A DNA stretch of 64,000 nucleotides from a bacterium (GCA_037131755.1 JBAXQJ010000004.1:1094-65093), one strand, 5' to 3'. Positions 3,441-60,838 are shown, counted from the stretch's first letter. Notes: a model not told the origin generated them from the letters alone. Translations and numbers: made by a program.

Positions 3441-3460
3441 ATTTTTAGCAGCCTGAAAGA

Positions 3461-5725: not shown

Positions 5726-5785
5726 ATTTTATGGATTAATAATCTTAATCCTAGTATACATCAAATATTTTGTAAAGTCAATCGT

Positions 5786-5805
5786 TCATAGGTTATCATA
5801 GGTTA
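5786..5805. promoter_or_regulatory. tandem direct repeat tcataggtta x2 in divergent hsdM / recombinase promoter region
   Basis: Perfect 10-bp tandem duplication in the 181-bp intergenic region between divergent genes. Confidence 0.3.
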
Positions 5806-5906
5806 AGATAATTTATCACTATATTTATTATAGTAATATTAGGCATTTTTAAGGGACTTGGGACGCTCTGGACTCTTCTGTAGATATGCGTCATCAATGT
5901 TAGTAT

Positions 5907-7226: not shown

Positions 7227-7238
7227 CATTTAGCACCA

Positions 7239-8591
7239 TCAATAAGCTTTGAATAGACGGCGAATTAATTTTTTAAAATACCGTTTTAAAGAATTATCTC
7301 TATTTAGATATTTTGAAATAAAATCATTGGCGCTTTTTATTTCCACGCTTTTTAGCCAACTAATTATTTCTTTATTAATTTTGAGTGTTTCTATAGCGTC
7401 TTGATTATTCAACTCCTTGCCTCTATGTATTACTTCATTTCGTATTTTATCGTAATTTGTGCACCATCCATTCCATAGAATCGCACTTTCTTTTGATAAT
7501 TTTTTTTCAGATACTTCGAATACAAGATCTTTTATTCTGTCTTTTGTATTCCATTTTCTATTCAATATTGCTTGAACATCTTCGGGGCTCAACCCCTTTT
7601 TTATATAGGCAGAAAAAAGAAAATTTTCTAAAAATATTTCGAATGCTTGAAAAATTTTAACGACTGCTAAAGTATACGCCTTTTTACTAATAGACGACGC
7701 CCCGTCTAGCAATAATAACTCATACAACAATGGCATCTCGTCATTTTTTAGCATCAACTCAATCGTCTTGAGCATGTTTAACGGTCTATTCATTATCGCA
7801 TCACCTATGCCATACCCCAATGAACTTATATATAGATGATTGTTGTGATCAACAAAATATACGTTATTTATGTTCAAAGAACCTAATCTCTCAACATAAT
7901 CTTCTTGCGTAACATATCTATACACATCCAAAAGCTTATTAATAACCTCGAGTGAAATTTCTGAGATTGTATTAATCACAGAACTAATATTCTTATTTAT
8001 TTCTTCAATCTTAAAGTCAGTATCTATTTGAATAATGACTTTTGTGTATCTGAACGTCCCATTAGCATCTCTTTCTTTTTCAATGTTTTTACCAGTCCAA
8101 TGTTGTTGCCAACCAAGACTTTCATTTATGGGAAATTGGGGACCAGTCAATACCGTATCTTTGAAATAAGTAGTTTTATTTTCAGCTAAATAATCAGCAT
8201 AATCTGAGTCAACTGTTGAAGTAGTCCAGATTTTTTGAAGTCGGACGTTAGCGACATGTTCTTTCCCCTTGTAGTTAATATCAAAATCGTAGTTATTTGG
8301 CACATGTAGACAATATGGCAGAGTCGCTTCAATAATGGTATTACAATCAAATTCTTCTTTCAAAAATGATGGATCAGTCAATTGATAAACTGGCGATGTA
8401 GTTGTGATTATAAACGCCTTTTCTAGGTTTACTTTATTTAAATCATTAGTTAGCAATTGTTTCTGCTGATCTGACGATAATTTTTCAAATTCTTTTTTGT
8501 TAACCAAAACATAAAAATTAACCACCTCCTGTTTATTTTTAAGGTGGGACTTGGCTTGTATTTCTAATAATTGCCAATCTTTTTCAGTCAT
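7239..8591 (-). CDS. hypothetical protein with C-terminal HEPN-like motif (candidate Abi/defence effector)
   Basis: 450-aa ORF with no recognisable enzymatic domain apart from RNEVIHRG (Rx4H) near the C-terminus in a helical region. Sits in the island between the recombinase and tRNA-Ser. Confidence 0.5.
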   Translation of the reverse strand: MTEKDWQLLEIQAKSHLKNKQEVVNFYVLVNKKEFEKLSSDQQKQLLTNDLNKVNLEKAFIITTTSPVYQLTDPSFLKEEFDCNTIIEATLPYCLHVPNNYDFDINYKGKEHVANVRLQKIWTTSTVDSDYADYLAENKTTYFKDTVLTGPQFPINESLGWQQHWTGKNIEKERDANGTFRYTKVIIQIDTDFKIEEINKNISSVINTISEISLEVINKLLDVYRYVTQEDYVERLGSLNINNVYFVDHNNHLYISSLGYGIGDAIMNRPLNMLKTIELMLKNDEMPLLYELLLLDGASSISKKAYTLAVVKIFQAFEIFLENFLFSAYIKKGLSPEDVQAILNRKWNTKDRIKDLVFEVSEKKLSKESAILWNGWCTNYDKIRNEVIHRGKELNNQDAIETLKINKEIISWLKSVEIKSANDFISKYLNRDNSLKRYFKKLIRRLFKAY

Positions 8592-8655
8592 ATGTATATT
8601 ATACCAAAAATGCCCCTAATAGGGGCATTCGGGTCTATCCGATACTAAATTGTAT

Positions 8656-8747
8656 TGGCGGAGACGGCGAGATTCGAACTCGCGGAGCCCTATAAGAGGC
8701 TCACCTCTTTAGCAAAGAGGCACATTAGACCACTCTGACACGTCTCC
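8656..8747 (-). tRNA. tRNA-Ser (anticodon GCU), CCA encoded
   Basis: Manual fold of GGAGACGTGTCAGAGTGGTCTAATGTGCCTCTTTGCTAAAGAGGTGAGCCTCTTATAGGGCTCCGCGAGTTCGAATCTCGCCGTCTCCGCCA: 7-bp acceptor, anticodon loop TTGCTAA, long variable arm, TTCGAAT T-loop. Confidence 0.8.
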
Positions 8748-8794
8748 AGAAACTGTTTATTCAATTGTTATATCTTCAAAAGAATCAACGTCTG

Positions 8795-8932
8795 GGTCCT
8801 CTTTAGCAAAGAGGCACATTAGGTCACAAGTTTTTGTCTGCTGACAAAACTCGCGACCCCGACTCGCGCCGTCGCGCTCCGTCTTTGATTTGCTCCACGT
8901 ATTCGCAAAGCAACACCCTGACACGTCTCCAA
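8795..8932 (-). pseudogene. duplicated 5' half of tRNA-Ser interrupted by about 96-bp insertion in the D-loop
   Basis: cctctttagcaaagaggcacattag (8795-8820) and ctgacacgtctcca (8919-8932) are identical to the intact tRNA segments 8705-8749; the 6 nt between them are replaced by about 96 nt. Confidence 0.5.
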
Positions 8933-9098
8933 AAATCATAACAAAATAAGACTATCATATTAAATCCGTTTTTTCTAGTCACGCTCTTAAACAAAGATCT
9001 GACTGATCTCAAGCTGATCTTCTCGGTCCGTCTCTCGCCTATCAGGAAAAACTTAACAAGAAAAACACCCGGTCAAAACCAGGTGCGAAAGCCATTAT

Positions 9099-25576: not shown

Positions 25577-25659
25577 AAATTTAAAATAGTTAATAGCGAG
25601 TAATGTAGAAATTATAGTACCGAACAGGCAAAGAGTCCAGGCGGTCTATTCTAAACTTT

Positions 25660-25752
25660 AACCGGTCGTCTGTTGATTTTTAAGTGTCTGGTTGAGGCTA
25701 TTTCCATAGCCGACCCGATGACCGAAAAAATCAACAGGCGACCGGTTTATTT
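25660..25752. other. long inverted repeat / structured element between ATPase and ndk
   Basis: accggtcgtctgttgattttt ... aaaaatcaacaggcgaccggt (21-bp arms, 1 mismatch), about 44-nt spacer containing a ggctat-ttcc-atagcc hairpin, followed by a T-run. Confidence 0.4.
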
Positions 25753-25761
25753 TTTTAATGG

Positions 25762-28596
25762 CTAAATCTTAAACGGCGACACGGCCGGAGCTGGCGGGGG
25801 CGGAACGTCTTTTTTTTCATATTTTTTCACAATCTCTTTTTCTACCTCTTCCCGCTCCCGGCCAAACTTGAGATAGGACAATTCTTTGAGTTTGGAAATG
25901 ATAGTTGGATCACCTTTTGGCGGCAGCATATTTTGGATATTGAACGGCTTGACCGGCACTCCTTTGGCCAGCATTTTTAGATAACAGTTGAAATTATCGA
26001 TATTCATAATGTCTCGGGCCGTAAAGACCGGCGCAAATTGTTTTTCCAAAAATTCGGCATCTTCGGAACCGACCCGGAAAGCCGCGATGGAACCAACGTT
26101 GCCAAAGACGGAGTCTTTGATCTTTTCATCGAGTTGTTTGATATATTGATGAGCGATATTGAGTGACAGTTTGTATTTTCGCGCTTCGGACAAAATTGTT
26201 GAGATCGAATCAGTGGTAATGTTTTGGAATTCATCGATGTACAAATAAAACGGCGGGGTATCGGTGCCCAGAGAATCGACTCGCGACAGGGCCGCCATCA
26301 AAATCTTGCCGACGACGATCAAACCGATCAGGTTGGCATTGATATCTCCCAGACGGCCTTTGGACAAATTGACCAGCAGGATTTTCTTGTTATCCATGAT
26401 TTCGCGAAAATTGAAAGATGATTTTTCCTGGGCTACCACCGGTCGCATAATCTCGTTTGCCAAGAAAACATCAAACTTGCTGGTGATATACGGCACGATA
26501 TTGGCGAGCGACGCTTCGCCGCCAGCCTTTTCCGCCACCTCCCGCCAGAACTGAACCACAACTGGGTTTTTACAATGAGACAGTTTTAGCTCGCGAAACT
26601 GCTTATTGGCCAGAACCCGCGAAACATCCAAAAGAGTGTTGCCGGTTTCTGGATCTTCCAAGACCAGCATTGTCGCGTTGCGGAAATACTGCTCGAACAT
26701 CGGTCCACCCGCCACTTTCATATCAAACAATTTATTAAAAATCGACAGCATTTCGTTTACCACAAAAGTCTTTTGTTCCGGGAAACGAACATCGTACTCG
26801 AGCATATTGAGGGCCATCGGTCGTGGCGTATAGGCCGGATCGAAATAAATCACATCTTCGTAACGCTCCTTGGGAATGATCGATAAGATATCCTGAATAT
26901 CCGAACCGTGCGGATCGATCATACAGACACCGTCACCGTTTTTAATATCCTGGGCGATCATATTCTTGAGCAGAGTCGTCTTACCAGTACCAGTCTGACC
27001 GATGGCATAGAAATGTCGGAGGCGATCCTCTTTGGCCATATAGATTTTGGTCTCAACGTTTCGGTTTGTGTTTGTTCCCAAGAGAATTCCCTCCGTTGGT
27101 AGGCCAAGCGGCGCCGGTGCCGTCCCGCTCTTGGAGATTTTCACGCCCGGTGAAGCACGCATCTCGCCCGATGGTAAATGCAACATCGTTGTGATTTCCC
27201 GGATATTCAAAGGCATTTTCTGACTATTTTCGAACACTCGAAAGGAAAACTCCCGGAGGACTTTTTTGAGCTCCCGGCCTTTCATTCGGGCAAAGGATAC
27301 TCGATTACTGCCGGTATTTTCAAACTGATTAAAAGCTGATTCAAGGTCAATCAGGATTCTTTCGGCTTCGGACTCGGTTGGGGCGGAAGCAACTAATCGG
27401 ATATTGGTTTCGACGGTTGGTGACTGGATCTTGGCATTCAAATTTTCCAAGATCGCCTTGTCCGGCAAATTCCTTGGGTCTTCGCCTTTTTTGTCTTTTT
27501 CCTTATCCTTGTCTTTCTTGTTTTTTTCCGCTGACTTAAAAAGGGCTTTGCCGAAATCCTTCACTACCGACTTGAGCATGCCGGCAAAAGTCAGACGGTC
27601 CATCTTGATCGCGTCCTTCAGTTTCATCCCCTTATCAATATCTTGCAAAGCTCGCTTGTAGAAACGGGTGTAATGCTCCCCGACCGGCTTGAACACCAGC
27701 TGAATGGCGGCACCGGCGCCGTCTTTGCTGATTTTTGAGAAAGCGTTCAAGATTATATTTAGCGGATCATAATCAAAATGCTCATAATATTTGATCGGAT
27801 AAAAATGATTGGCGAGCTGTTTACCACAAGATACGACCGACTTACCGGTTTCATTAAAAATATTATAATCGTCTTTCTTCTCGAAAATCTTGGCGTTGGG
27901 GAAAATGGCCAGGATCTGTTTTTCAAACAAACCGACCTTGCTGTTAGGTACGGCGACATAGAAAACCGTTTCCTCACTGCCATTACTGTTAGCCAGTTCC
28001 ACCGTAAAATACTGCGGACCGTCCGTCTCATCAGAAACAGCAATCATGCCGGCATAAAACTGCTCCATTTTGGAAATTAATTCTTTCAAGTTACGCTGCT
28101 TGTCTTTTTCTTCTGTCGGTTCCGGCAAAGAAACTTCAAACAAGGTCATCTTGAGCGACCTGAAGAAAGGCGATTTTTCCAATCGGCCGGCAATCGGCAA
28201 GCCCGCCTTGATATATTGAACCAAGAAGCGGTGGAAATCGTCATCCAAATGCGAATCGTTCATTTTTTCCACGATGGACAAGGCATTCATCAGGCCTTTG
28301 GATTGCAAAACGGTCACCAGCTCTTCCATTTTGGTATCATGCTCTTCCGGCATTAAATCCAGGACGATTGCGTCAATTTCTTTTGGTTGCAACTGATACT
28401 CCGGTTCCAAGACTTTCTCTGGTTTTTCGGCTTTGTAGTCGATGATCTTTTCGGTAATCACCGCTTCACGAACCGGCTCTAGACCTTTTTCCGCAATCGT
28501 CTTTTCGTGCTTGGCCACCTGGGCGCGCAAAAAATTCAATTCCTCCTGGGGAGAACTGAATTTCTGTTCCATTTTTTCAAAACTACCTTCGGTCAT
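25762..28596 (-). CDS. VirB4/TraC/VirD4-superfamily P-loop ATPase (FtsK/HerA-like) with large N-terminal domain of unknown function
   Basis: 944 aa; Walker A AIGQTGTGKTTL; Walker B LYIDEF; downstream R-finger/HQ...QL region; no N-terminal TM helices. Confidence 0.6.
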   Translation of the reverse strand: MTEGSFEKMEQKFSSPQEELNFLRAQVAKHEKTIAEKGLEPVREAVITEKIIDYKAEKPEKVLEPEYQLQPKEIDAIVLDLMPEEHDTKMEELVTVLQSKGLMNALSIVEKMNDSHLDDDFHRFLVQYIKAGLPIAGRLEKSPFFRSLKMTLFEVSLPEPTEEKDKQRNLKELISKMEQFYAGMIAVSDETDGPQYFTVELANSNGSEETVFYVAVPNSKVGLFEKQILAIFPNAKIFEKKDDYNIFNETGKSVVSCGKQLANHFYPIKYYEHFDYDPLNIILNAFSKISKDGAGAAIQLVFKPVGEHYTRFYKRALQDIDKGMKLKDAIKMDRLTFAGMLKSVVKDFGKALFKSAEKNKKDKDKEKDKKGEDPRNLPDKAILENLNAKIQSPTVETNIRLVASAPTESEAERILIDLESAFNQFENTGSNRVSFARMKGRELKKVLREFSFRVFENSQKMPLNIREITTMLHLPSGEMRASPGVKISKSGTAPAPLGLPTEGILLGTNTNRNVETKIYMAKEDRLRHFYAIGQTGTGKTTLLKNMIAQDIKNGDGVCMIDPHGSDIQDILSIIPKERYEDVIYFDPAYTPRPMALNMLEYDVRFPEQKTFVVNEMLSIFNKLFDMKVAGGPMFEQYFRNATMLVLEDPETGNTLLDVSRVLANKQFRELKLSHCKNPVVVQFWREVAEKAGGEASLANIVPYITSKFDVFLANEIMRPVVAQEKSSFNFREIMDNKKILLVNLSKGRLGDINANLIGLIVVGKILMAALSRVDSLGTDTPPFYLYIDEFQNITTDSISTILSEARKYKLSLNIAHQYIKQLDEKIKDSVFGNVGSIAAFRVGSEDAEFLEKQFAPVFTARDIMNIDNFNCYLKMLAKGVPVKPFNIQNMLPPKGDPTIISKLKELSYLKFGREREEVEKEIVKKYEKKDVPPPPAPAVSPFKI

Positions 28597-28639: not shown

Positions 28640-29611
28640 TCATCTGTTTATTATTTTACCCATAAGCTTATATCCATTTCCATGACTTAACATCCCTAAA
28701 TATGATGCCGCTGTTTCTTTTTTCTGACTTTCCTCTAATCTCTTAAACATTTTGTTTTTAGTACTTGTCCTTAATACCCTATGATTCGGAAAATGCACCC
28801 AGCCCAAAAAATCCATACCAGATGCCAGGGTTTTTATAAAAATCTTTTGGGGATGCATACGCAATTTTAATTTTTGCTCCAGAAATTTGCTGATTATAGG
28901 CACCAGTTTTTCCAATTCACTTTTATCCTGCGAGAAAAAAACAAAATCATCGGCATACCTTATGTAATATCCTGCTTTCAACTTATGCTTTACAAATTGG
29001 TCAAATTCGTTCAGATACACATTCACCAAGAGCTGAGAGGTTAAATTACCGAGCGGCAAGCCCTTATAAATCATACCGCTATGGAAACTTTTAATGATAG
29101 TTCGCAATAAAACAAGAACATTCCGGTCTTTTATATTTTTCTTCAGAATTTCAAACAGTATTTTCTGATCAATGGACGCAAAACACTTCCTGATATCCCC
29201 TTTCAAAATCCAAACGGTTTTAGTGTGATTAAAAGACGCCCTTTTGCCAAAATTCCTGAACCTATCTAGGGCTTTGTGTGTTCCTTTTCCTAACCGGCAA
29301 GAATACGAATCAAAAATAAATTTTCGGTCAAAAAACGGATACAAAATCCGGTAAACCGCCCGGTGCAACACCCTGTCCCGCACGCTTGCCTTGTGTATGT
29401 CTCTCGGCTTCGGATCATTTACCTTGAAATTCTCGTAATTGTCATGAACATAAGTTTTGTTTTTCAAATCATCATGCAGGTCAATCAGATTGTCCATCAA
29501 TCTCAGTTTGAATTCCGGCACATCTTTCTTATCCTTTTTACCCCTTGAAAATTCCTGCCAGGCAAGGAGTAAGTTTTCCAAAGATATGATATGGTCATAG
29601 GCATGAGTCAA
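28640..29611 (-). CDS. diversity-generating retroelement reverse transcriptase
   Basis: 323 aa, RT domains only; YADD box (YIRYADDFVFF); DGR-type motif 4 LPLGNLTSQ ([I/L]GxxxSQ) in place of the group II QGxxxSP; TTG start at 29611. Confidence 0.8.
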   Translation of the reverse strand: MTHAYDHIISLENLLLAWQEFSRGKKDKKDVPEFKLRLMDNLIDLHDDLKNKTYVHDNYENFKVNDPKPRDIHKASVRDRVLHRAVYRILYPFFDRKFIFDSYSCRLGKGTHKALDRFRNFGKRASFNHTKTVWILKGDIRKCFASIDQKILFEILKKNIKDRNVLVLLRTIIKSFHSGMIYKGLPLGNLTSQLLVNVYLNEFDQFVKHKLKAGYYIRYADDFVFFSQDKSELEKLVPIISKFLEQKLKLRMHPQKIFIKTLASGMDFLGWVHFPNHRVLRTSTKNKMFKRLEESQKKETAASYLGMLSHGNGYKLMGKIINR

Positions 29612-29633
29612 AAATTTTCTAACAATAATGTCA

Positions 29634-29647
29634 CCCCCCCCCCCCCC
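29634..29647. repeat. homopolymeric C14 (G14 on minus strand) tract
   Basis: 14 consecutive C, 22 nt upstream of the RT start codon and between an ATG (29628) and the Avd-like reading frame. Confidence 0.9.
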
Positions 29648-29781
29648 GCAACACCCTGCCCGTCATTAACAGCCTGAAAGACGCTTATTTTCTCTGGATT
29701 TCCTATTTTGTCCATCTGCCTAATATACACAAATATTCGCTTGGTGAAAATGTTAGCAAATTATTTATTGAGACTATTGAA

Positions 29782-30006
29782 ATGACGGCTTATGCCGAGT
29801 TTTTGACCAGAACGGAAAAATTACCTTATATAAAAGTAGCAGTACGAAAATTAGATACACTAAAAGTTATGATTCAAATAGTCTGGGAAATAAAGGCTTT
29901 GGACGAGAAAAAATATATTGCTTTGTCAGAAAAACTGAACGAGACCGGCAAGATGCTTGGTGGCTGGCATAATAAATTAGCCAAAGAAAACTCCCCGACT
30001 AAATAA
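29782..30006 (+). CDS. avd: Avd-like accessory protein (four-helix-bundle family), N-terminally truncated in this frame; frame extends upstream to 29629 without a start codon
   Basis: C-terminus EKKYIALSEKLNETGKMLGGW resembles the Avd/TIGR02436 family. In-frame upstream segment ENAYFLWISYFVHLPNIHKYSLGENVSKLFIETIE also resembles the family N-terminus but lacks an ATG. The ATG at 29628 is in the -1 frame, across the C14 tract. Confidence 0.5.
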   Translation: MTAYAEFLTRTEKLPYIKVAVRKLDTLKVMIQIVWEIKALDEKKYIALSEKLNETGKMLGGWHNKLAKENSPTK

Positions 30007-30028
30007 TCGGGGAGAAATAAAGAGAGTA

Positions 30029-30150
30029 GCGGGACCGAGAAGGCAAACCCATTGTCACTGTTCCACCTGTTGTCAGGGTTACCGTTGTAGGCATTGAGCC
30101 TGTAGTCGTTGTACCGGTTCGTACCGAGCACGTTCGGGTTGCCGTCAGAA
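30029..30150 (-). repeat. DGR template repeat (TR)
   Basis: 122 bp, 109/122 identical to 30648-30769; all 13 mismatches are A (minus strand) in this copy. Confidence 0.85.
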
Positions 30151-30631
30151 ATCGTAATGAAACCATCTGTAGCGTTACCCTGGAATACTCGTCGGGACGC
30201 ATAAGTCTGTGTGATCTAAAATCACCCAGTTTCATTACCAAGTATCTTTATTTTTTATAAAGTGTCTGCATAAATCCTCTGTCTCAAACCGTGGCCCAAA
30301 ACATTCTCAACTTATGGATACTGGATTCGGCGGCAACAAACCTTGGCCTGTTACTTATACTCGCCTACTACCGATTTTATTCTAGCACAAAACTGTATTT
30401 TATCTGAAAAACGAAACCACCCTTTTAAAGGTGGTATTCTCGGAGTCTTTCGGCCATTTGTATTACAAGTGTAGCAAGTATAGAGAGATAGTCAATAATA
30501 AAATTTGAGCATTTTAAAACCCCATACTTTCGTATGAGGTTCCGATTCTACGCTGTATTCGGAAAGCGTTGTGACTTTGTCACATTTTTTCGAAGCCAAG
30601 GACAAAGACTCCGAGTGCCAGCGCCTAAATC

Positions 30632-31300
30632 CTAGGCCTGAGCACCAACTTGCGGGACCGAGAAGGCAAACCCACCGCCACCGCTCCACCTGCGGTCAGG
30701 GTTACCGTGGCAGGCAAAGAGCCTGTAGTCGTTGTACCGGTTCGTACCGAGCACGACCGGGTTGCCGTCAGAATCAGGAATAGGTTCGTGCATGGTGATA
30801 ATCCAGTCCAAACCCATTTCCTTGATTTCCTCATCCGAGAACATGTCCCGGATCAAGCAGGCTACTTCGGCATGCGGATCAGTCATCTTCCGTTTCTTGG
30901 CGTTACCACGAATATTCTTCGTGATTCGGTCATTGTCGGAGAACAACTTTCCAGGGATAACACCAATCTGGTGAACCGTCCCTGCCTTGGTCGGCTTAAA
31001 GTTCTTGTGTCGGAGCACGCTTTGGGCGTAACTGCCAACAGGTAAACCTTTGCCATTCAAGTGAACGATCCACTCTTCGCCGGTTTTCCCGTTCGAGACG
31101 ACCGTGAAATAAATCACGCCGTCCGCGTCTCGGGTCCACTTCATACCATCATTGAACCGCCCCTCGATTGCCCGCTGGAGAAAAGCATCAAGTTTTTCCG
31201 GATCAAATCCGTATTCCTTCTGAAGGAAAACCTGACGACCGATTTCCGCCAACTTACCGCCCAGTCTCGCCTGCAGATCGCCATTAAGTTTTGTACTCAT
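30632..31300 (-). CDS. DGR target (variable) protein, probable C-type-lectin-like fold with C-terminal VR
   Basis: 222 aa; the VR encodes the C-terminal NPD.R...GFAFSV segment, which resembles CLec-type VRs; no signal peptide. Confidence 0.7.
   Translation of the reverse strand: MSTKLNGDLQARLGGKLAEIGRQVFLQKEYGFDPEKLDAFLQRAIEGRFNDGMKWTRDADGVIYFTVVSNGKTGEEWIVHLNGKGLPVGSYAQSVLRHKNFKPTKAGTVHQIGVIPGKLFSDNDRITKNIRGNAKKRKMTDPHAEVACLIRDMFSDEEIKEMGLDWIITMHEPIPDSDGNPVVLGTNRYNDYRLFACHGNPDRRWSGGGGFAFSVPQVGAQA
30648..30769 (-). repeat. DGR variable repeat (VR) at 3' end of target gene
   Basis: Counterpart of the TR. The 13 differences all fall at TR adenines, mostly within AAC codons: TR peptide LGTNRYNDYRLNAYNGNPDNRWNSDNGFAFSVP versus VR LGTNRYNDYRLFACHGNPDRRWSGGGGFAFSVP. 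Confidence 0.85.
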
Positions 31301-32410: not shown

Positions 32411-32603
32411 AAGAGCGAGCCTTTGCCGCTTGGAAAATTCTCTAAGGCAAAGCGAGTTATTGCTTTTTGCGGGTTAGCGGAGCCAGCTTAGAAAATTAAA
32501 GAATTTTTTAGAAAAATCAAACTGTTTGAGGAATATTCTGATATGACGAGTTTTTGATTTTTCGTTAAGAAAAATGACTTAATTTTCAAGCTGGCGCAGC
32601 GCT
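32411..32603. repeat. MITE/ERIC-like intergenic repeat, copy 1
   Basis: About 135-bp core (gcgggttagcggagccagcttagaaaattaaag ... gatatgacgagtttttgatttttcg ... ttaattttcaagctggcgcagcgc) is more than 85% identical to 44892-45025; internal terminal inverted repeats ccagcttagaaaattaa / ttaattttcaagctgg. Confidence 0.7.
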
Positions 32604-32604
32604 A

Positions 32605-32633
32605 GGCCCGCCCAAATCAGATTTGGGCGGGCC
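32605..32633. other. GC-rich 13-bp perfect stem-loop downstream of adk
   Basis: ggcccgcccaaat-cag-atttgggcgggcc; no adjacent U-run. Confidence 0.4.
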
Positions 32634-32661
32634 GTAAGCAAAAGGTAATGACGAGCGATCC

Positions 32662-33294
32662 TTATAGTCCCAATTTATTTATTATCTCCTGATGGACTTC
32701 TTCAATGGTTTTTTCACCATTGATATCCAAGAAAATATAATTGGTATTGTCTTTGTAATAATTGATCGTTGGCATCACTTCGGCATCAAACCATTTCAGC
32801 CTTTTTTCAATCGCCTCCTGTTTGTCATCCTTGCGGGCCCGGCCTTCCAATCTCTTTTTTGCCCACTCCCGGCTAACATTCATATAAATGACTACCGGTA
32901 AAGACACCTTGTAGAAAGTCAAAGCCGAATCAAGCAATTGCGCTTCGTGCAATTTTCGAGGACAGCCATCAAAAAGAAGATTCTCTTTGCCGGTATAATG
33001 GGTGAACAAATAATTTTCCCATAATGCGACCATCACTGCCTCCGGCATCAAACCGCCAGCTTCCATAATCTCTTTCGATAATTTCTGGGTGTAGGTCTTA
33101 CCCTTCACAAATTCGCGAAGGAAAGCGCCGGTTTCGATATGCAGGGTCTGGCAAGATTTATCTTTTTCACACAGGAATTTTGATAGTAAATCCGCCTGAG
33201 TCCCCTTGCCGCAACCAGATCGGCCAATAAAAATATAAGCGCGTGGAATAGACCACATCGGTTCCTTCTTTTCTCGTTTAAAAAAATTTAACAT
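32662..33294 (-). CDS. adk: adenylate kinase
   Basis: 210 aa; P-loop GRSGCGKGTQ; lid/NMP-binding regions. Confidence 0.85.
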   Translation of the reverse strand: MLNFFKREKKEPMWSIPRAYIFIGRSGCGKGTQADLLSKFLCEKDKSCQTLHIETGAFLREFVKGKTYTQKLSKEIMEAGGLMPEAVMVALWENYLFTHYTGKENLLFDGCPRKLHEAQLLDSALTFYKVSLPVVIYMNVSREWAKKRLEGRARKDDKQEAIEKRLKWFDAEVMPTINYYKDNTNYIFLDINGEKTIEEVHQEIINKLGL

Positions 33295-33402
33295 GGGAAA
33301 ATTATAACATATTTTAAAAAGTTAGTGTTATTGAAAGTAGTGAGATATTGCTTTTTAAAAGCATTACGGAGTGAAATTTATAGCAATAAATTTCATGAGT
33401 AT

Positions 33403-33432
33403 AGAAAAAGTGCCGCGTCGGCGGCACTTTTA
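33403..33432 (-). terminator. rho-independent terminator after rplE (operon ends here)
   Basis: gtgccgc-gtcg-gcggcac with flanking A5/T4 runs, about 30 nt downstream of the rplE stop. Confidence 0.55.
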
Positions 33433-33464
33433 TCGTGGTTTTAAAAAGTAATATCGAACGGTTT

Positions 33465-34022
33465 TTATTTCTTAGCATCGTCAGCTTTGAATGGGAAGCC
33501 GAGATATTCCAGGAAGGCAGCTGCTTCAGCCTTATTCTTTGCTGTTGTATTTACCGTAATAGTCATCCCGAAAACATCTTTCAGTTCTTCATCGGCTGTT
33601 TCTGGGAAAATAGTGTTTTCTTTGATACCAATGGAATAGTTACCCATTTCATCAATACCTTTTCTTAGGATACCACGAAAGTCTTTAGTTCGAGGGAAAG
33701 CCACCAAAACCATTTTATCGACAAAAGCCATCATTCTGTCGCCACGCAAAGTGACAACCAAGCCAACCGGGTCACCTTGTCGAACTTTGAACGAAGCGAT
33801 CGACTTCTTGGCCCCGCGAAGCGCCGGCTTCTGGCCGGTAATTTTGACCACTCGATCAGTAATAGTTTCGATTTTCTTCTTATCCTTGAGGGAACCGATA
33901 CCAACATTCACCACCACCTTCTGGAGCTTTGGCACCTGCATGATATTTTTGTAACCCATCTTACCCTTTAGGGCTTCAAAGGTTTTCTCCTGCTTTTCTT
34001 TGGTTGTAATAATTTTTGACAT
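33465..34022 (-). CDS. rplE: 50S ribosomal protein L5
   Basis: 185 aa; matches the L5 family. Confidence 0.9.
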   Translation of the reverse strand: MSKIITTKEKQEKTFEALKGKMGYKNIMQVPKLQKVVVNVGIGSLKDKKKIETITDRVVKITGQKPALRGAKKSIASFKVRQGDPVGLVVTLRGDRMMAFVDKMVLVAFPRTKDFRGILRKGIDEMGNYSIGIKENTIFPETADEELKDVFGMTITVNTTAKNKAEAAAFLEYLGFPFKADDAKK

Positions 34023-37381: not shown

Positions 37382-37654
37382 GGTATTAAAATTAAAGATT
37401 AAAAATCAAAACGTAAAATATTGAGTCCGCCCAAGCGAACAAATATCCTGAATTCCTCTCATCTGTAGACAGACAAAACGATCCAGAATCCATCTTCGTA
37501 ACTCTTAGCGTTAAAAAAACAGAGCTCTTTCAAGCTCCGAGTATATTAGCAGAGGACGATTCAGAAGTCAAGCAAAATAAAAGCGGTATTTATCTCGGAG
37601 CGAGGTACCTGCCCATAAGGAGCTCGACCACATCTCGTCCTACGTTGCCGATAA

Positions 37655-37684
37655 CAAAAACAACCCCCGAAGGGGTTGTTTTTG
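37655..37684. terminator. strong bidirectional intrinsic terminator hairpin inside the rplB-rpsS spacer
   Basis: caaaaacaacccc-cgaa-ggggttgtttttg, 13-bp stem with U-runs readable on both strands. Confidence 0.55.
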
Positions 37685-37791
37685 CTTAAAAATAAAAGCG
37701 GTATGAACCCTTATATTGCCTTCCTCGGCTCGGAAATGGAAAAGATTACTTTTTCATTTCGCTCGCTCTACGTCGGCAATAAGTTTTGAAA

Positions 37792-39019: not shown

Positions 39020-39146
39020 TAATGTATTTCTGGTAATTAGGGCGAGTTATTGTCTTTTTAGAGACTAGCGAGCGCGACGGCGCAAGCTCGAGGAAAAATT
39101 TAGCAAAATTTTATCCGTGCTCTAAAAAGATAATAACGAGCGACTT

Positions 39147-42237: not shown

Positions 42238-42563
42238 ATTTTTATGGGCCGACTTTACTTGCTTAAGCGGAGCGCGCGAGAACGTTGGCTCTGCCTATTC
42301 AACTAAAGCGACTAAAAATTATTTTGCCTTCCATTTTACAATGGAGAGCGATTAATAAATCGACTTATAATGGTGTAAATTAATTTACACAGCGAAATCC
42401 GCCCGCTCGAACATATACCAGTTCATCAGCGAGAAAATTACGGTTTGGTAATATTAACAAATTAAGAAAAAATGTCAAATACAGCGCTTCGGCCCTGGTC
42501 AGGCAGTCTCCTCCCCCGCCCACGATTATCATAGAAAGGTTCGAACTGGGTAATTTAATAAAC

Positions 42564-42600
42564 AAAATAGCGGGTTTGGCTACGCCAAACCCGCTATTTT
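42564..42600 (-). terminator. rho-independent terminator downstream of fusA
   Basis: aaaatagcgggtttggc-tac-gccaaacccgctatttt, 17-bp stem with U-run on the minus strand. Confidence 0.55.
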
Positions 42601-42615
42601 AAAATTATAAAATCT

Positions 42616-44870: not shown

Positions 44871-45053
44871 GAGAGCGAGGTTTCTTGTTTTACGTGTTAG
44901 CGGAGCTGGTTTAGGAAATCAACGAGCTTTTTAGAAAAATCAAACTGTTTGAGGAATATTCTGATATGACGAGTTTTTGATTTTTCGTGAAGAAAAGCGA
45001 CTTGATTTTCAAACTGGCGCAGCGCGGAAAGCAAAACAAGAAACCGAGCGTCC
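44871..45053. repeat. MITE/ERIC-like intergenic repeat, copy 2 (flanked by 13-bp inverted repeats ggtttcttgtttt / aaaacaagaaacc)
   Basis: Core 44892-45025 aligns base-for-base with 32469-32602, including gatatgacgagtttttgatttttcg and ctggcgcagcgc. Confidence 0.7.
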
Positions 45054-58792: not shown

Positions 58793-59269
58793 TTAATATT
58801 GGATCACGCCCGTCTGAAAGACCGTCAGGGATTTTAGGCTTGAAGTGCTGGAAACCAAGACTAGTGAGACGGTCCCGGTCGCGCTGGCATAGCCAGTAAT
58901 TTTATTAAAGACGATATTGGACGTTCCCCCAGTCAGAGAAATGCCGGAAATTTTTGTTCGCGCGTTCAAATAATAAGTTTCCAGCGAGGAAGTGGCCGAG
59001 TAGCTTGGCCCGCTGAATAGGGTGGCGGAAGTCGAGGCAAAATGAACGCCAAAACTGCTGTCGTTCTTTGAATTCATCGACATGGACCGGGAACGTTCCG
59101 TGAGAGCGACGACCGATGAAAAGTCTTTGCTCAAGCTTTGGCTGGATAGGAGATTATAAAAAGCAAAGATCACCAGCGAAGCCATAACAATGCTAATGGC
59201 GATAATGACCAGCAATTCAATCAGAGTAAAACCAGAAAGTGATTTTTGACTAGTGAGACTTTTTTTCAT
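58793..59269 (-). CDS. type IV pilin-like protein
   Basis: SGFTLIELLVIIAISIVMASL prepilin motif. Confidence 0.65.
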   Translation of the reverse strand: MKKSLTSQKSLSGFTLIELLVIIAISIVMASLVIFAFYNLLSSQSLSKDFSSVVALTERSRSMSMNSKNDSSFGVHFASTSATLFSGPSYSATSSLETYYLNARTKISGISLTGGTSNIVFNKITGYASATGTVSLVLVSSTSSLKSLTVFQTGVIQY

Positions 59270-59453
59270 TTATCTTATTATACAAAAAAACCCAGAACTA
59301 AGCGAGGGCAAGAGTAGCTTCTTAGCTGGTAGCTTGTAGGAAGATAATTTTAATACATTATGAGTCTGTTCATTTTGCGTGTTAACGGAGCCGGCTTAGA
59401 AAATTAAAGAGGTTTTTAATAAAACAAAGCATTAGATACACCGTTCTCAATTA

Positions 59454-59623
59454 AGCGAGTATTTGGGTTTTTGCGAGTTAGCGTAGTGATAGTTAAAAAT
59501 CAAGATAATTTTTAGAAAAATTCATCTGTCTGACGAGTCTGCGAGGAGTTATGAATTTTTTGTAAAGAAAATTATCTATGATTTTTCTATCACGAAGCGC
59601 TTTAGCAAAAACCCAAATACGAG
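59454..59623. repeat. MITE/ERIC-like repeat, diverged copy 3, bounded by 17-bp terminal inverted repeats
   Basis: cgagtatttgggttttt ... aaaaacccaaatacgag flank a core related to copies 1 and 2 (ttgcgagttagcg..., tttttagaaaaat, ctgacgag). A further partial copy (gcgtgttaacggagccggcttagaaaattaaag) lies at 59377-59409. Confidence 0.55.
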
Positions 59624-60838
59624 CTATATCTTATCCATCACCGAATAAATCGGCGAGATCATTGAGATAGCAAAGAAACCAACAGCCGCACCGATTAGTA
59701 CCATGAGAACCGGTTCGATGATTGTCGACATATCTTTAGTCCGCTGATCGACATCGGCCTCATAGAAAATCGCTACCTCTGACAGCATGCTTGCCATTTT
59801 ACCGGTTTCCTCACCAACGCTCATCATTTCGCCGACAAACGGCGGATAGAGATCCGGACTCTTCATAAAAATCGTCGAGATATTCTCGCCTTTTTCCACA
59901 ACCGATTTCGCTTCAATCAAGACTTTCTTGTAATAATAATTACCCATCACTTCGGCCGTGATCTCAATTGCCTGGGCAAAAGGCACTCCAGCCTCGAGCA
60001 AGGAAGACAAGGTTCGGGCGACGCGCGCCGTATTGGTTTCGCGCACCAGTTCTCCAATCAAAGGAGCCTTGATTGCGATAAGATTCATCGTCCGACTGCC
60101 TTGAGGAGTCTTTGCCCAGACATAAATTACAGAAATGGTCGTCAACAAAATAATGATCGCATACAGCCAATGGGCCGACAAAAAGTCGCTCAGCATGATG
60201 ATAAATTGCGTACTGGCCGGCAAATCCGTACCGGCATCCCGGAAAGTACCAACGAGACCGGGTACAACGTAAATAAACATGAGGACTCCGACGACAAGCA
60301 TCACGGAAATTATGACGGCCGGATAGATCATCGCCCCTTTCACTTTCTTTTGGATTTTATAGGTCTTGTCCATTTGTTCGGCGATATTATTCAAAGACTT
60401 GGACAAGCTGCCCCCCTCCTCTCCCGCTCGGACCATCGAGACAAACAGTCCGGAAAATACTGAGGGTTGAGTCTTCATCGCTTCGCTGAAAGTTTTTCCC
60501 TTCTTTATTTCCAGGTTCAGGGCGGCCATCACCTTGGAAAATCTCGCGTTTTTTATCTGGCGCTCCAACACCGACAAAGCCCGAGTGAGGGACAGTCCGG
60601 CATCGAGCATCAAGCCGAGGTTTTTGGCAAAGGCGATTTTCTGGGCGACAGAAACCCTGCCAATGATGGAATTGACAATAGACATGAGATCAAAACTGTT
60701 CTTCTTGACCTCCTCGGCCGAAATAAGCATCGCTTCTTCGGACTTGATGTCGTTGTACAAGTCCAAACGGTTTTGGGCTTCTTTGATTCCCTCAACCCTT
60801 TCCCCGTTATTTTTTATCGCCTTATACTTGAATTTCAT
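59624..60838 (-). CDS. pilC: type IV pilus assembly platform protein PilC (GspF family)
   Basis: 404 aa; two GspF repeats; 3 TM segments. Confidence 0.8.
   Translation of the reverse strand: MKFKYKAIKNNGERVEGIKEAQNRLDLYNDIKSEEAMLISAEEVKKNSFDLMSIVNSIIGRVSVAQKIAFAKNLGLMLDAGLSLTRALSVLERQIKNARFSKVMAALNLEIKKGKTFSEAMKTQPSVFSGLFVSMVRAGEEGGSLSKSLNNIAEQMDKTYKIQKKVKGAMIYPAVIISVMLVVGVLMFIYVVPGLVGTFRDAGTDLPASTQFIIMLSDFLSAHWLYAIIILLTTISVIYVWAKTPQGSRTMNLIAIKAPLIGELVRETNTARVARTLSSLLEAGVPFAQAIEITAEVMGNYYYKKVLIEAKSVVEKGENISTIFMKSPDLYPPFVGEMMSVGEETGKMASMLSEVAIFYEADVDQRTKDMSTIIEPVLMVLIGAAVGFFAISMISPIYSVMDKI

What the first reader, a model, noticed from the sequence alone, without database searches (positions are those of the whole stretch)
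59454..59623. Third, diverged copy of the intergenic repeat with clean 17-bp terminal inverted repeats next to the pilus cluster
The spacer between the pilin gene and pilC carries cgagtatttgggttttt … aaaaacccaaatacgag (perfect 17-bp TIRs) around a core related to the adk/map and rpsG/fusA repeats. A further partial copy lies at 59377-59409. Different TIRs around a conserved core suggest either a MITE family with variable ends or a conserved RNA module that recombines.
Basis: seen in the sequence. Interest (0 to 1): 0.5.

Follow-up and report, generated by a model that had tools for sequence, protein, structure and literature searches.

The report
Stop-codon-hugging hairpin repeat family in Patescibacteria
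The pilC–pilin spacer holds one copy of a previously undescribed family of 100–290-base, rod-shaped non-coding hairpin repeats that sit right after stop codons in tiny "candidate phyla radiation" bacteria and behave like mobile, recombining DNA rather than like a classical transposon or a fixed regulatory RNA.

Summary
Window 59454-59625 is a 172-nt imperfect hairpin. The perfect inverted repeat is 16 bp (59459-59474 / 59605-59620), not 17. The outer "cgag...cgag" are direct repeats.

It belongs to the same family as the adk/map and rpsG/fusA copies: a profile built from those two finds it at E=4e-12, and one built only from other organisms at E=1e-26. The partial copy is also real (59362-59428).

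The window also holds two short-type members (39042-39141 and 33332-33468). Relatives occur in Paceibacterota and Saccharibacteria genomes. No Rfam family and no paper matches.

Architecture: 5' box GCGAG, a copy-specific closing stem, a conserved covarying core, a 3' box CGAGC, then the neighbour's stop codon.

Evidence of mobility:
- The rpsG/fusA and rplD/rplW sites are empty in close relatives.
- A co-occurring strain carries a different family member in place of this copy.
- Near-identical copies lie at different loci.
- Truncated remnants exist.

No transposase is present, and the "TIRs" are not conserved, so it is not a classical MITE.

Best reading: a new mosaic hairpin-repeat family, like REP/BIME, BOX or Correia elements, probably acting as a single-stranded hairpin. 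The mobilising mechanism is unknown.

The parts
59454..59625 (+). c3: the complete long-type hairpin element of the finding (172 nt)
   Evidence: nhmmer E=2.7e-35 with the family HMM, E=1e-26 with an HMM built from other organisms only
59454..59459 (+). 5' box AGCGAG, conserved outside the variable stem
   Evidence: present in c1, c2, c3, L011, L012, L022, L023, L035, L043 and s1
59459..59474 (+). 5' arm of closing stem P1 (GTATTTGGGTTTTTGC); its outer 8 nt are copy-specific
   Evidence: 16-nt perfect complement of 59605-59620
59473..59486 (+). inner GCGAG followed by the conserved box GTTAGCGTAG
   Evidence: invariant GTTAGCG.AG in 12 of 12 aligned copies; the L035 allele breaks exactly after this inner GCGAG(T)
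59509..59521 (+). conserved box TTTTTAGAAAAAT (junction of two inner helices)
   Evidence: invariant in 12 of 12 copies
59526..59550 (+). apical region CTGTCTGACGAGTCTGCGAGGAGTT with two further CGAG motifs; of variable length in relatives
   Evidence: relatives L004 and L007 carry a roughly 95-nt insert here
59593..59605 (+). conserved 3' box CGAAGCGCTTTAG (pairs with the GCG of the GTTAGCG box)
59605..59620 (+). 3' arm of closing stem P1 (GCAAAAACCCAAATAC)
59620..59625 (+). 3' box CGAGCT; it overlaps the pilC stop codon (CTA at 59624-59626, which reads TAG on the - strand)
59362..59428 (+). c4: truncated 5' half of a c1-like long-type element (remnant). It carries the -35 (59385-59380) of a promoter-like site on the - strand for the pilin gene; the CATAAT -10 hexamer (59362-59357) lies at the remnant's left edge.
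   Evidence: nhmmer E=2e-11; 92% identity to c1 over 38 nt; promoter-like TTAACA-17-CATAAT at 59385->59357 on the - strand
32451..32657 (+). c1: long-type copy between adk and map, with an extra GC hairpin (32606-32632) inserted in its 3' arm
44874..45050 (+). c2: long-type copy between rpsG and fusA
   Evidence: the site is empty in L038/L039, L040 and L036
39042..39141 (+). s1: short-type relative between rplD and rplW, with the same boxes and a P1 like that of c1
   Evidence: the spacer is 4-8 nt in relatives L038 and L040
33332..33468 (+). s2: short-type relative between rplE and adk, with degenerate boxes (GTGAG / CGAAC)
   Evidence: short-type HMM E=8e-37
37728..37768 (-). possible minimal relative: GCGAG-C-12-bp stem-tetraloop-CGAGC, about 30 nt from the rplB stop codon (weak, single observation)
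   Evidence: read from the sequence; not caught by the strict scan
59624..60838 (-). pilC (T2SSF) gene whose stop codon abuts the element
   Evidence: PF00482
58793..59269 (-). pilin-like gene downstream of the spacer
   Evidence: N_methyl motif E=0.002, below the Pfam cut-off; the N-terminus MKKSLTSQKSLSGFTLIELLV is read from the sequence

Best explanation
Window 59454-59625 is one copy of a family of non-coding, rod-shaped hairpin repeats of Patescibacteria. The family is a mosaic intergenic repeat, not a transposase-type MITE and not a fixed regulatory RNA.

Each copy is built, on the strand defined here as +, in this order:
- a short TAAG-like lead-in;
- the box (A)GCGAG;
- a closing stem P1 whose outer ~8 bp are copy-specific;
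- an interior;
- the other arm of P1;
- the box CGAGC(G/T);
- 0-7 nt, and then the stop codon of the gene on the other strand.

The interior is either the conserved, covarying 'long' core (boxes GTTAGCG.AG, TTTTTAGAAAAAT, CTGT.TGAG...CGAGTT, G.AGCGC) or a 'short' core of two small hairpins. The two boxes extend the helix through a tandem G.A / A.G mismatch.

Shown:
- The family inserts into sites that are empty in relatives.
- It is exchanged for another member in a co-occurring strain.
- Near-identical copies exist at different loci.
- It leaves 5' remnants.
- Stems and interiors reassort between copies.

Inferred:
- It propagates or recombines as a single-stranded hairpin of the CGAG-bearing strand (DNA or RNA), recognised by a trans-acting enzyme encoded elsewhere.
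- Exchange happens at the shared CGAG boxes, or by one-sided homologous recombination anchored in the abutting gene.
- New insertions land on the TA of a stop codon, and the element's first purine restores TAA/TAG.

At this locus the element places a -58 kcal/mol hairpin in the pilB-pilC transcript directly after the pilC stop. An older remnant (c4) probably supplies the -35 of the pilin promoter.
For: Family and structure:
- Three long copies plus one remnant are in the window.
- 12 distinct copies from Paceibacterota, Saccharibacteria and metagenomes align.
- In the core helices 93.1% of cells are paired. 13 pairs change on both sides; 0 of 500 shuffles reach the paired-cell percentage or the covariation score (3 of 500 reach the 13-pair count), and slid controls give 40-59%.
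- Every copy closes with a 12-17-bp P1 of different sequence.

Boxes:
- A strict scan for GCGAG + 8-nt stem ... stem + CGAGC gives 3 hits on +, 0 on -, and 0 in reversed or permuted controls.
- CGAG occurs 17 times against CTCG once in 929 nt of elements. Background is 2.9 against 3.4 per kb.

Mobility:
- The rpsG-fusA spacer lacks the element in L038/L039, L040 and L036, whose EF-G is 89-92% identical.
- The rplD-rplW spacer is 4-8 nt in L038 and L040 but 127 nt with s1 in the window.
- 71 kb of those relatives hold no copy.
- L035 has identical pilC and pilin flanks but carries a short-type element instead of c3. It keeps only c3's first 28 nt, up to the inner GCGAG.
- L043, whose PilC is 73% identical, has a short-type element right after the pilC stop.
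- L011 and L012 are about 97% identical copies at different loci. Their homology ends at AAGCGAG and at CGAGCGAT..TTAT.
- The orthologous pair L002/L004 differs by a roughly 95-nt apical insert.

Modularity:
- c2 and L023 share a core at about 95% but have unrelated P1 outer boxes.
- c1 (long) and s1 (short) share a P1 outer box.

Strand:
- G.U to A.C cells are 25:5 in favour of the CGAG strand.
- Fold energies are -92/-69, -62/-49 and -71/-58 kcal/mol for the + and - strands.

Position:
- The right end shows CGAG-N6-TTA(stop) in c1, c2, s1, s2, L023 and L012. The spacing is N0 in c3 and N5 in L043.
- The C-termini of S7 and L4 are unchanged relative to relatives.
Against: - No mobilising enzyme was found. 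Pfam scans of 40 window ORFs, plus the precomputed Pfam families for the 49.6-64 kb stretch, show only a large serine recombinase in an R-M island and a DGR reverse transcriptase.
- The whole genome could not be searched, so copy number and any cognate gene are unknown.
- Loop sequences are conserved across two phyla. That fits a functional RNA as well as a recognition structure for mobilisation.
- The strand that folds better is antisense to the genes in this genome. No promoter was seen for it, and it is the leading-strand template by GC skew. How it would become single-stranded is therefore unexplained.
- Only one remnant junction (L035) falls cleanly on a CGAG box. The L006 junction does not, and the c4/c3 junction could not be placed with significance.
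- L035 is a 1.7-kb, low-coverage contig.
- The G.U:A.C count uses a structure predicted on the + strand, which biases it towards G.U.
Confidence: 0.55

Rival explanations
1. It is a host-serving structured RNA: a cis element of operon transcripts, or a small antisense RNA. Its conserved purine-rich loops would bind a protein, for example to set mRNA 3' ends or stability, or to couple with ribosomes terminating at the adjacent stop codon. The copies would then be paralogous functional sites rather than selfish DNA.
For: - Loop boxes are invariant between Saccharibacteria and Paceibacterota while the stems covary.
- The G.U bias shows that one strand is selected as a single strand.
- The tandem G.A clamp and the GNRA-like internal loop (GUGA/GUAA/GUUA) are read. 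That such motifs are typical of RNA is my own knowledge.
- Spacing to the stop codon is fixed.
- Many neighbours are translation genes: S7/EF-G, L4/L23, L5, EF-P, LepA, S9 and TyrRS.
Against: - The element is absent from the same spacers in relatives with 89-92% identical EF-G.
- It is replaced by a different member in a co-occurring strain.
- In this genome the better-folding strand is antisense to all abutting genes, yet it is sense in L006 and in L002/L004.
- No promoter was found for that strand. On the + strand, c2 is preceded by a hairpin that also looks like a terminator.
- There are truncated remnants and nested inserts.
- No Rfam family matches.
Confidence: 0.22
2. It is a classical non-autonomous transposon (MITE) of a TA-targeting DDE family such as IS630/Tc1-mariner, as proposed for Correia elements. 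It would insert into the TA of stop codons and duplicate it.
For: - TA is present on both sides in 11 of 11 copies examined.
- The first base inside the element is a purine, so TAA/TAG is regenerated.
- In 7 of 11 copies the distal TA is preceded by T or C, as expected for the displaced stop codon (read).
- Size, copy number, non-coding nature and insertion polymorphism all fit.
Against: - The inverted repeats are not conserved between copies.
- The distance from the left TA to the GCGAG box varies from 0 to 8 nt, so there is no defined left terminus.
- The outermost conserved motifs are direct repeats, not inverted ones.
- No DDE transposase is in the window. The one DDE gene seen is in relative L038, which has no copies.
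- TA is common in this AT-rich sequence.
Confidence: 0.13
3. It is an ordinary hairpin, either an intrinsic terminator or chance palindromic low-complexity sequence, and its resemblance to the other two spacers is spurious.
For: The sequence is AT-rich, it lies between two genes, and on either strand it forms a hairpin.
Against: - The terminator scan finds nothing at the element, and no U-tract follows it.
- Profile E-values are 4e-12 and 1e-26.
- A 16-bp perfect inverted repeat is expected about 0.003 times in this window (my own estimate).
- The rpsG-fusA copy is followed by a separate canonical terminator.
Confidence: 0.02

Closest known systems
REP / BIME / REPIN elements of Enterobacteria and Pseudomonas, mobilised by RAYT (TnpA_REP) HUH enzymes
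   Same: Both are intergenic and non-coding, lie just downstream of stop codons inside operons, and form hairpins. Both carry a conserved tetranucleotide at the foot of the hairpin (GTAG there, CGAG here). Both have a mosaic, modular make-up, expand in particular lineages, and have no encoded protein.
   Different: REPs are 20-40-nt units whose sequence is conserved within a genome. REPINs are two inverted REPs, so the tetranucleotide would appear inverted at the far end; here CGAG is direct at both ends and recurs inside. The closing stem varies between copies. The elements are 100-290 nt with a core conserved across phyla. No RAYT gene was seen.
Correia elements (CREE/NEMIS) of Neisseria
   Same: Both measure about 100-160 bp, with long and internally deleted short forms. 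Both have TA at each side, are co-transcribed hairpins in spacers, can create promoters for neighbouring genes, and have no known transposase.
   Different: Correia elements have 26-bp TIRs that are conserved among copies and that define the ends. Here the inverted repeats are copy-specific, and the conserved boxes are direct repeats. Orientation and stop-codon spacing are fixed in this genome.
BOX elements of Streptococcus pneumoniae and NIME/dRS3 mosaic repeats of Neisseria
   Same: Both have a modular build, with conserved terminal modules or short boxes bracketing interchangeable interior modules. The ends pair into a long stem. Both show mosaic reassortment and probably recombination-driven turnover.
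   Different: There is no sequence similarity, and the module grammar differs: GCGAG - variable stem - core - stem - CGAGC. Here the terminal stem itself is the variable part. This family is spread over at least two Patescibacteria phyla.
ERIC/IRU imperfect palindromes of Enterobacteria
   Same: Both are imperfect palindromes of roughly 127 bp in transcribed intergenic regions. Copies vary in size through internal insertions or deletions at fixed points, and function is unknown.
   Different: ERIC copies are conserved along their whole length, including the ends, and lie in either orientation. No flanking box motif or stop-codon spacing is described for them.
IS200/IS605-type single-strand transposition and its protein-less derivatives (PATEs)
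   Same: Both are strand-asymmetric and hairpin-based, lack conventional TIRs, and have a specific tetranucleotide at the junctions. The exchange of a segment bounded by two such tetranucleotides, as in L035, is what that chemistry could produce.
   Different: Those elements have two separate subterminal hairpins rather than one rod. Their active strand lies on the lagging-strand template, whereas here the better-folding strand is the leading-strand template by GC skew. No TnpA gene was seen. This comparison is an analogy only.

Membership tests
Classical MITE | Terminal inverted repeats conserved among copies and shared with an autonomous IS | tested here: not met
   The outer stem differs wholesale between c1, c2, c3, L022 and L023. 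The conserved outermost motifs GCGAG...CGAGC are direct repeats, not inverted.
Classical MITE | Target-site duplication of fixed length flanking every copy | tested here: inconclusive
   TA is present on both sides in 11 of 11 copies. However, the left TA lies 0-8 nt from the GCGAG box, and TA is frequent in this sequence. L022 shows a possible 8-9-bp direct repeat instead.
Classical MITE | Cognate transposase gene in the same genome | not testable with these tools
   None is found in the window ORFs scanned with Pfam or in the precomputed Pfam families for 49.6-64 kb.
Classical MITE | Small, non-coding, multi-copy, with presence/absence polymorphism | tested here: met
   The window holds five full copies and one remnant. 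Sites are empty in L038, L040 and L036. An allele is replaced in L035.
REP / REPIN | 20-40-nt palindromic unit with a conserved 5' GTAG; REPIN = two inverted units | tested here: not met
   There is no GTAG-type unit. CGAG is direct at both ends and recurs 3-5 times on one strand. The element is a single rod of 100-290 nt.
REP / REPIN | Single-copy RAYT gene flanked by the repeats | not testable with these tools
   No Y1/HUH domain is found among the window ORFs scanned.
Any Rfam RNA family (release 15) | Score at or above the family's gathering threshold | tested here: not met
   Whole window: only tmRNA and two tRNAs. E-value mode on c3, c1 and s2: only generic hairpin models far below threshold.
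Intrinsic terminator | G+C-rich stem followed by a T-run | tested here: not met
   No terminator-like site is found at 59454-59625 on either strand. A separate canonical terminator follows c2.
Integron attC site | Complementary R''(RYYYAAC)/R'(GTTRRRY) core sites at the two ends, downstream of a cassette ORF near an integrase | tested here: not met
   The end boxes GCGAG and CGAGC are not complementary. The neighbours are ribosomal and housekeeping genes. No integron integrase was seen.
TIGR arrays (TIGR-Tas) | Tandem array of ~36-nt units (edge repeat, 9-nt spacer A, loop repeat, spacer B) next to a Nop-domain Tas gene | tested here: not met
   The definition is taken from PMC12045711. Here the copies are dispersed single rods of 100-290 nt. 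No Nop-domain protein appears in the Pfam scans.
This family (long type), as defined here | Boxes GTTAGCG.AG, TTTTTAGAAAAAT and G.AGCGC in order, inside a closing stem bracketed by GCGAG/CGAGC | tested here: met
   c3 has all of them: 59477-59486, 59509-59521, 59595-59601, and the boxes at 59455-59459 and 59620-59624.

The most novel reading that the evidence does not exclude
The elements may be a new class of single-strand hairpin mobile element of Patescibacteria. Any segment bounded by the tetranucleotide CGAG next to a hairpin would be cut out and pasted by a still unidentified trans-acting enzyme (HUH-like or other). New copies would be delivered precisely onto stop codons of highly expressed genes. 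The variable closing stem and the interchangeable interiors would then be the footprints of that chemistry.
Probability: 0.15. Interest if true: 0.75.

Novelty: new variant of a known kind. Interest (0 to 1): 0.5.

Why it matters
Patescibacteria (CPR) have tiny, tightly packed genomes, so repeats there are unexpected. I found no description of an intergenic repeat family in them: four literature searches and Rfam gave nothing.

This family has these properties:
- It spans at least two phyla.
- It sits inside core ribosomal-protein operons.
- It is polymorphic between co-occurring strains.
- It breaks short-read assemblies. Several contigs end at copies, and the NCBI contig would start at s2.

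The family gives three things:
- a marker for strain-level variation and recombination, possibly transformation-driven, in uncultured CPR;
- a handle for finding an unknown mobilising enzyme by phyletic profiling;
- a candidate RNA or ssDNA structure with conserved loops for biochemical study.

For the pilus locus itself, it suggests that pilC and the major pilin gene are transcriptionally separated by repeat-derived sequence, including a likely repeat-derived promoter.

Tried and rejected
- **Rfam:** searched at gathering threshold on the whole window and in E-value mode on c3, c1 and s2. Only generic hairpin models scored, far below threshold.
- **Hammerhead-like reading:** the apical CUGA..GACGAG has no matching core and no Rfam hit, so this was rejected.
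- **Intrinsic terminator:** rejected.
- **Integron attC and TIGR-Tas arrays:** both considered and rejected.
- **Phage and plasmid collections:** no meaningful match. The viral contig scan gave only false hits.
- **Cognate transposase:** 40 window ORFs were scanned, plus precomputed Pfam families for 49.6-64 kb. The only recombination or retro-element genes are a large serine recombinase beside a type I R-M system and a 323-aa reverse transcriptase. The latter turned out to belong to a diversity-generating retroelement with its own TR/VR pair, unrelated to the hairpins.
- **Promoter for the better-folding (+) strand:** none found.
- **Variable 8-nt stem box versus neighbouring target sequence (guide-like idea):** nothing convincing by eye.
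- **c4/c3 junction on c4's apical CGAG:** the tail alignment is not better than chance (15 of 35 matches; null maximum 20). The claim was dropped.
- **Orientation versus replication:** GC skew in the CGAG-strand orientation is negative in 11 of 12 loci. This is confounded with gene orientation and with related loci, so it is inconclusive.
- **L5-adk adjacency as a possible mis-assembly through s2:** rejected, because two independent assemblies show it.
- **Population alleles at c1, s1, s2 and c2:** all retrieved contigs carry the same spacers. Only the pilC locus showed a second allele.
- **Not done:** a covariance model was not built, because nhmmer with leave-one-out profiles already answered the membership question.

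Full report
**1. What is at the coordinates**

The spacer between the 404-aa T2SSF/PilC gene (59624-60838, - strand) and a prepilin-like gene (58793-59269, - strand) is 354 nt.

Positions 59454-59625 form a long imperfect hairpin. The repeat finder reports 44-nt arms. The + strand folds at -70.9 kcal/mol (z = -9.4) and the - strand at -57.8 (z = -7.3).

- The perfect inverted repeat is 16 bp, 59459-59474 with 59605-59620.
- The outer 'cgag' at both ends is a direct repeat.
- In the fold those outer bases give C-G, G.A, A.G, G-C.

**2. Relation to the other two copies**

The copies are c1 (32451-32657, adk/map), c2 (44874-45050, rpsG/fusA) and c3 (this finding). They align over their whole length.
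- Identity is c1-c2 79%, c1-c3 64% and c2-c3 59%.
- A profile of c1+c2 alone finds c3 at E=4e-12.
- A profile built only from copies in other organisms finds it at E=1e-26.

The partial copy (c4) is real and longer than stated: 59362-59428, E=2e-11, 92% identical to c1 over 38 nt.

**3. The family is wider**

Exact-pattern scans of public genomes and metagenomes returned true relatives alongside chance hits:
- Saccharibacteria MAGs: L002-L005, L007, L021.
- A Paceibacterota MAG: L006 (= L010).
- Lake metagenomes: L011, L012, L015, L022-L024.

By EF-G similarity the window's organism is a Paceibacterota/Minisyncoccia-type patescibacterium. An identical pilC region lies on NCBI contig CAZXBA010000001.1 of GCA_964638605.1.

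A motif scan (GCGAG + stem ... stem + CGAGC) and a second profile revealed a 'short type' of 100-140 nt with the same end boxes:
- s1: 39042-39141, between rplD and rplW.
- s2: 33332-33468, between rplE and adk.
- One directly after pilC in a relative (L043).
- One in L035.

No Rfam family matches. Four literature searches found nothing relevant. Phage and plasmid collections hold nothing similar.

**4. Anatomy**

Read on the strand that carries CGAG (the + strand in the window), the element runs as follows:
- a TAAG-like lead-in;
- the box (A)GCGAG;
- closing stem P1, 12-17 bp, whose outer ~8 bp are copy-specific and are followed by a T-run;
- the interior;
- the second arm of P1;
- the box CGAGC(G/T);
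- 0-7 nt, then TTA or CTA, which is the stop codon of the gene on the other strand.

The long-type interior has invariant boxes separated by helices that covary: GTTAGCG.AG, TTTTTAGAAAAAT, CTGT.TGAG...CGAGTT, ATTTTTCGT..AGAAAA and CG.AGCGC.
- 93.1% of cells are paired, and 13 pairs change on both sides.
- 0 of 500 shuffles reach the observed paired-cell percentage or the covariation score (3 of 500 reach the 13-pair count), and slid controls give 40-59%.
- The apical loop is a variable-length site. It is 10-25 nt in most copies and carries a roughly 95-nt insert in L004 and L007.
- c1 and its close relatives L011 and L012 carry an extra GC hairpin in the 3' arm.

The motif CGAG punctuates the element. 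It occurs 17 times, against CTCG once, in 929 nt of window elements. Background is 2.9 against 3.4 per kb.

**5. Which strand matters**

- All copies fold better on the CGAG strand.
- In the core helices, G.U cells outnumber A.C cells 25:5, or 17:5 without one conserved U.G column.
- Caveat: the structure was predicted on that strand.
- The end boxes give a tandem G.A mismatch on that strand, but pyrimidine-pyrimidine mismatches on the other.

In the window the CGAG strand is antisense to every abutting gene. By GC skew it is the leading-strand template. I found no promoter for it. In L006 and in L002/L004 the element lies mid-spacer in sense orientation.

So one strand is selected as a single strand, but whether as RNA or as DNA is open.

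**6. Evidence that it moves or recombines**

(a) Empty sites.
- Relatives with 89-92% identical EF-G have rpsG-fusA spacers without the element. L038/L039 have 125 nt: stop codon, terminator, promoter. L040 and L036 carry other inserts.
- In the window the element lies between the unchanged S7 stop codon and a canonical terminator.
- rplD-rplW is 4-8 nt in L038 and L040 but 127 nt with s1 in the window. The L4 C-terminus is unchanged.
- None of the 71 kb from these relatives holds a copy.

(b) Allele replacement.
- L035 has flanks identical to the window on both sides.
- It carries a complete short-type element directly after the pilC stop, then 21 nt of foreign sequence, then only the first 28 nt of c3.
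- The break falls right after c3's inner GCGAG.
- Its short element is not s1 or s2, so this is not a chimera of window loci.

(c) The same site in a distant relative. PilC at 73% identity (L043) is also followed at once by a short-type element.

(d) Recent copies. L011 (the ortholog of c1) and L012 (another locus) are about 97% identical. Homology stops at AAGCGAG and at CGAGCGAT..TTAT.

(e) Remnants keep the 5' side in three cases: c4 before c3, c3's 5' end before the short element in L035, and a short-type 5' piece plus a duplicated 12-nt flank before the long element in L006.

(f) Module reassortment. c2 and L023 share a core at about 95% but have unrelated P1 outer boxes. c1 (long) and s1 (short) share a P1 outer box.

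**7. Position rule**

- In c1, c2, s1, s2, L023 and L012 the spacing is CGAG-N6-TTA(stop).
- In c3 it is N0, with stop CTA. In L043 it is N5.
- TA flanks both sides in 11 of 11 copies, and the first base inside the element is a purine. An insertion into the TA of a stop codon would therefore rebuild TAA/TAG.
- The left TA is not at a fixed distance from the GCGAG box, so a clean TA duplication is not established.

**8. What it is not**

| Rejected reading | Reason |
|---|---|
| Classical MITE | Ends not conserved; conserved boxes are direct repeats; no transposase in the window ORFs scanned or in the precomputed Pfam record |
| REP/REPIN | No GTAG-type unit; boxes not inverted |
| Terminator | |
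| attC site | End boxes not complementary |
| TIGR array | |

The reverse transcriptase 3 kb from c1 belongs to a diversity-generating retroelement.

**9. Most likely mechanism (confidence 0.55)**

I read this as a mosaic hairpin-repeat family that works like REP/BIME, BOX/NIME or Correia elements.

Shown: repeat family, structure, boxes, insertion and replacement polymorphism, modularity, strand asymmetry.

Inferred:
- the active form is a single-stranded hairpin recognised by an enzyme encoded elsewhere;
- exchange occurs at the CGAG boxes, or by homology-facilitated illegitimate recombination anchored in the abutting gene (ComEC and a type IV pilus are encoded here);
- insertion is into stop-codon TA.

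Local consequences (inferred):
- a -58 kcal/mol hairpin sits in the pilB-pilC transcript right after the stop;
- a promoter-like site for the pilin gene, TTAACA-17-CATAAT, has its -35 inside the c4 remnant.

Rivals: a host-serving structured RNA (0.22), a TA-targeting MITE (0.13), and chance or a terminator (0.02).

**10. Verdict**

- The thing is a new, cross-phylum family of intergenic hairpin repeats with unusual grammar.
- It is of moderate interest. The mobilising mechanism and the active strand are the open questions.

Noticed in passing
window 28640-31300 (- strand): A diversity-generating retroelement. It has a 323-aa reverse transcriptase (28640-29611; the LGNLTSQ motif is read from the sequence) and a template repeat at about 29996-30158. 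The variable repeat, at about 30622-30781, forms the C-terminus of a 222-aa target protein (30632-31300). Nearly all core mismatches sit at template adenines. A small Avd-like ORF lies at 29782-30006 on the + strand.
   Followed up: partly
window 525-8950: A type I restriction-modification pair (hsdR at 525-3440, hsdM at 3461-5725) lies beside a large serine recombinase (5907-7226). Next to these is a tRNA (8659-8747, - strand) with partial duplicates of its sequence at about 8799-8823 and 8919-8931. This looks like an integrated island at a tRNA gene.
   Followed up: no
window 25648-25759: Another roughly 110-nt near-perfect hairpin (34-nt arms, 82% complementary) abuts the stop codon of a VirD4/TraD-like ATPase gene (25762-28596). 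It has no GCGAG/CGAGC boxes, so it is a different family of stop-codon-adjacent hairpin.
   Followed up: no
window 59357-59385 (- strand): A promoter-like site, TTAACA-17-CATAAT (10 of 12 matches), lies upstream of the pilin gene. Its -35 comes from the remnant's GTTAACGG box, which is the family's GTTAGCGG with one change. This is possible exaptation of a dead repeat as a promoter.
   Followed up: partly
window 32606-32632: A perfect GC-rich hairpin (CCCGCCCAAATCAGATTTGGGCGGG) is inserted in the 3' arm of c1. It is shared by L011 and L012 and absent from all other family members: a nested insertion inside the repeat.
   Followed up: partly
L036 8500-10000; L040 9290-10000; L038 9875-10001: The rpsG-fusA spacer is an insertion hot spot in this clade. 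One relative carries a Bro-N gene plus a 119-aa ORF there, another carries a PemK-type toxin gene, and a third has nothing.
   Followed up: partly
window 33465-34022 / 32662-33294: rplE (L5) is followed directly by adk and map, without the usual S14...SecY genes in between. Two independent assemblies confirm this (L049, L050), so it is a real operon rearrangement. The s2 repeat sits at the junction.
   Followed up: partly
window 37382-37791 and 42238-42615: There are unusually long spacers inside the ribosomal-protein/EF cluster: 410 nt between rpsS and rplB (54 nt in L038) and 378 nt between tuf and fusA. The first contains a terminator-like hairpin, six CTCG motifs and a mini-hairpin bracketed by GCGAG/CGAGC on the - strand (37728-37768). 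The content is otherwise unexplained.
   Followed up: partly
L023, L006, L003, L022 (flanks of the repeat): Genes next to family members outside the window are often translation-related: EF-P, LepA, ribosomal protein S9 and TyrRS. This hints at a preference for highly expressed genes. The enrichment is weak (about 4 of 9 independent contexts).
   Followed up: partly
L053, L054, L011, L032; NCBI contig CAZXBA010000001.1: Several short-read contigs of this population end at or next to a repeat copy: after rplD at s1, after S7 at c2, and in adk near s2. By coordinate arithmetic the NCBI contig would begin at window position ~33488, just past s2. The repeats evidently break assemblies.
   Followed up: no
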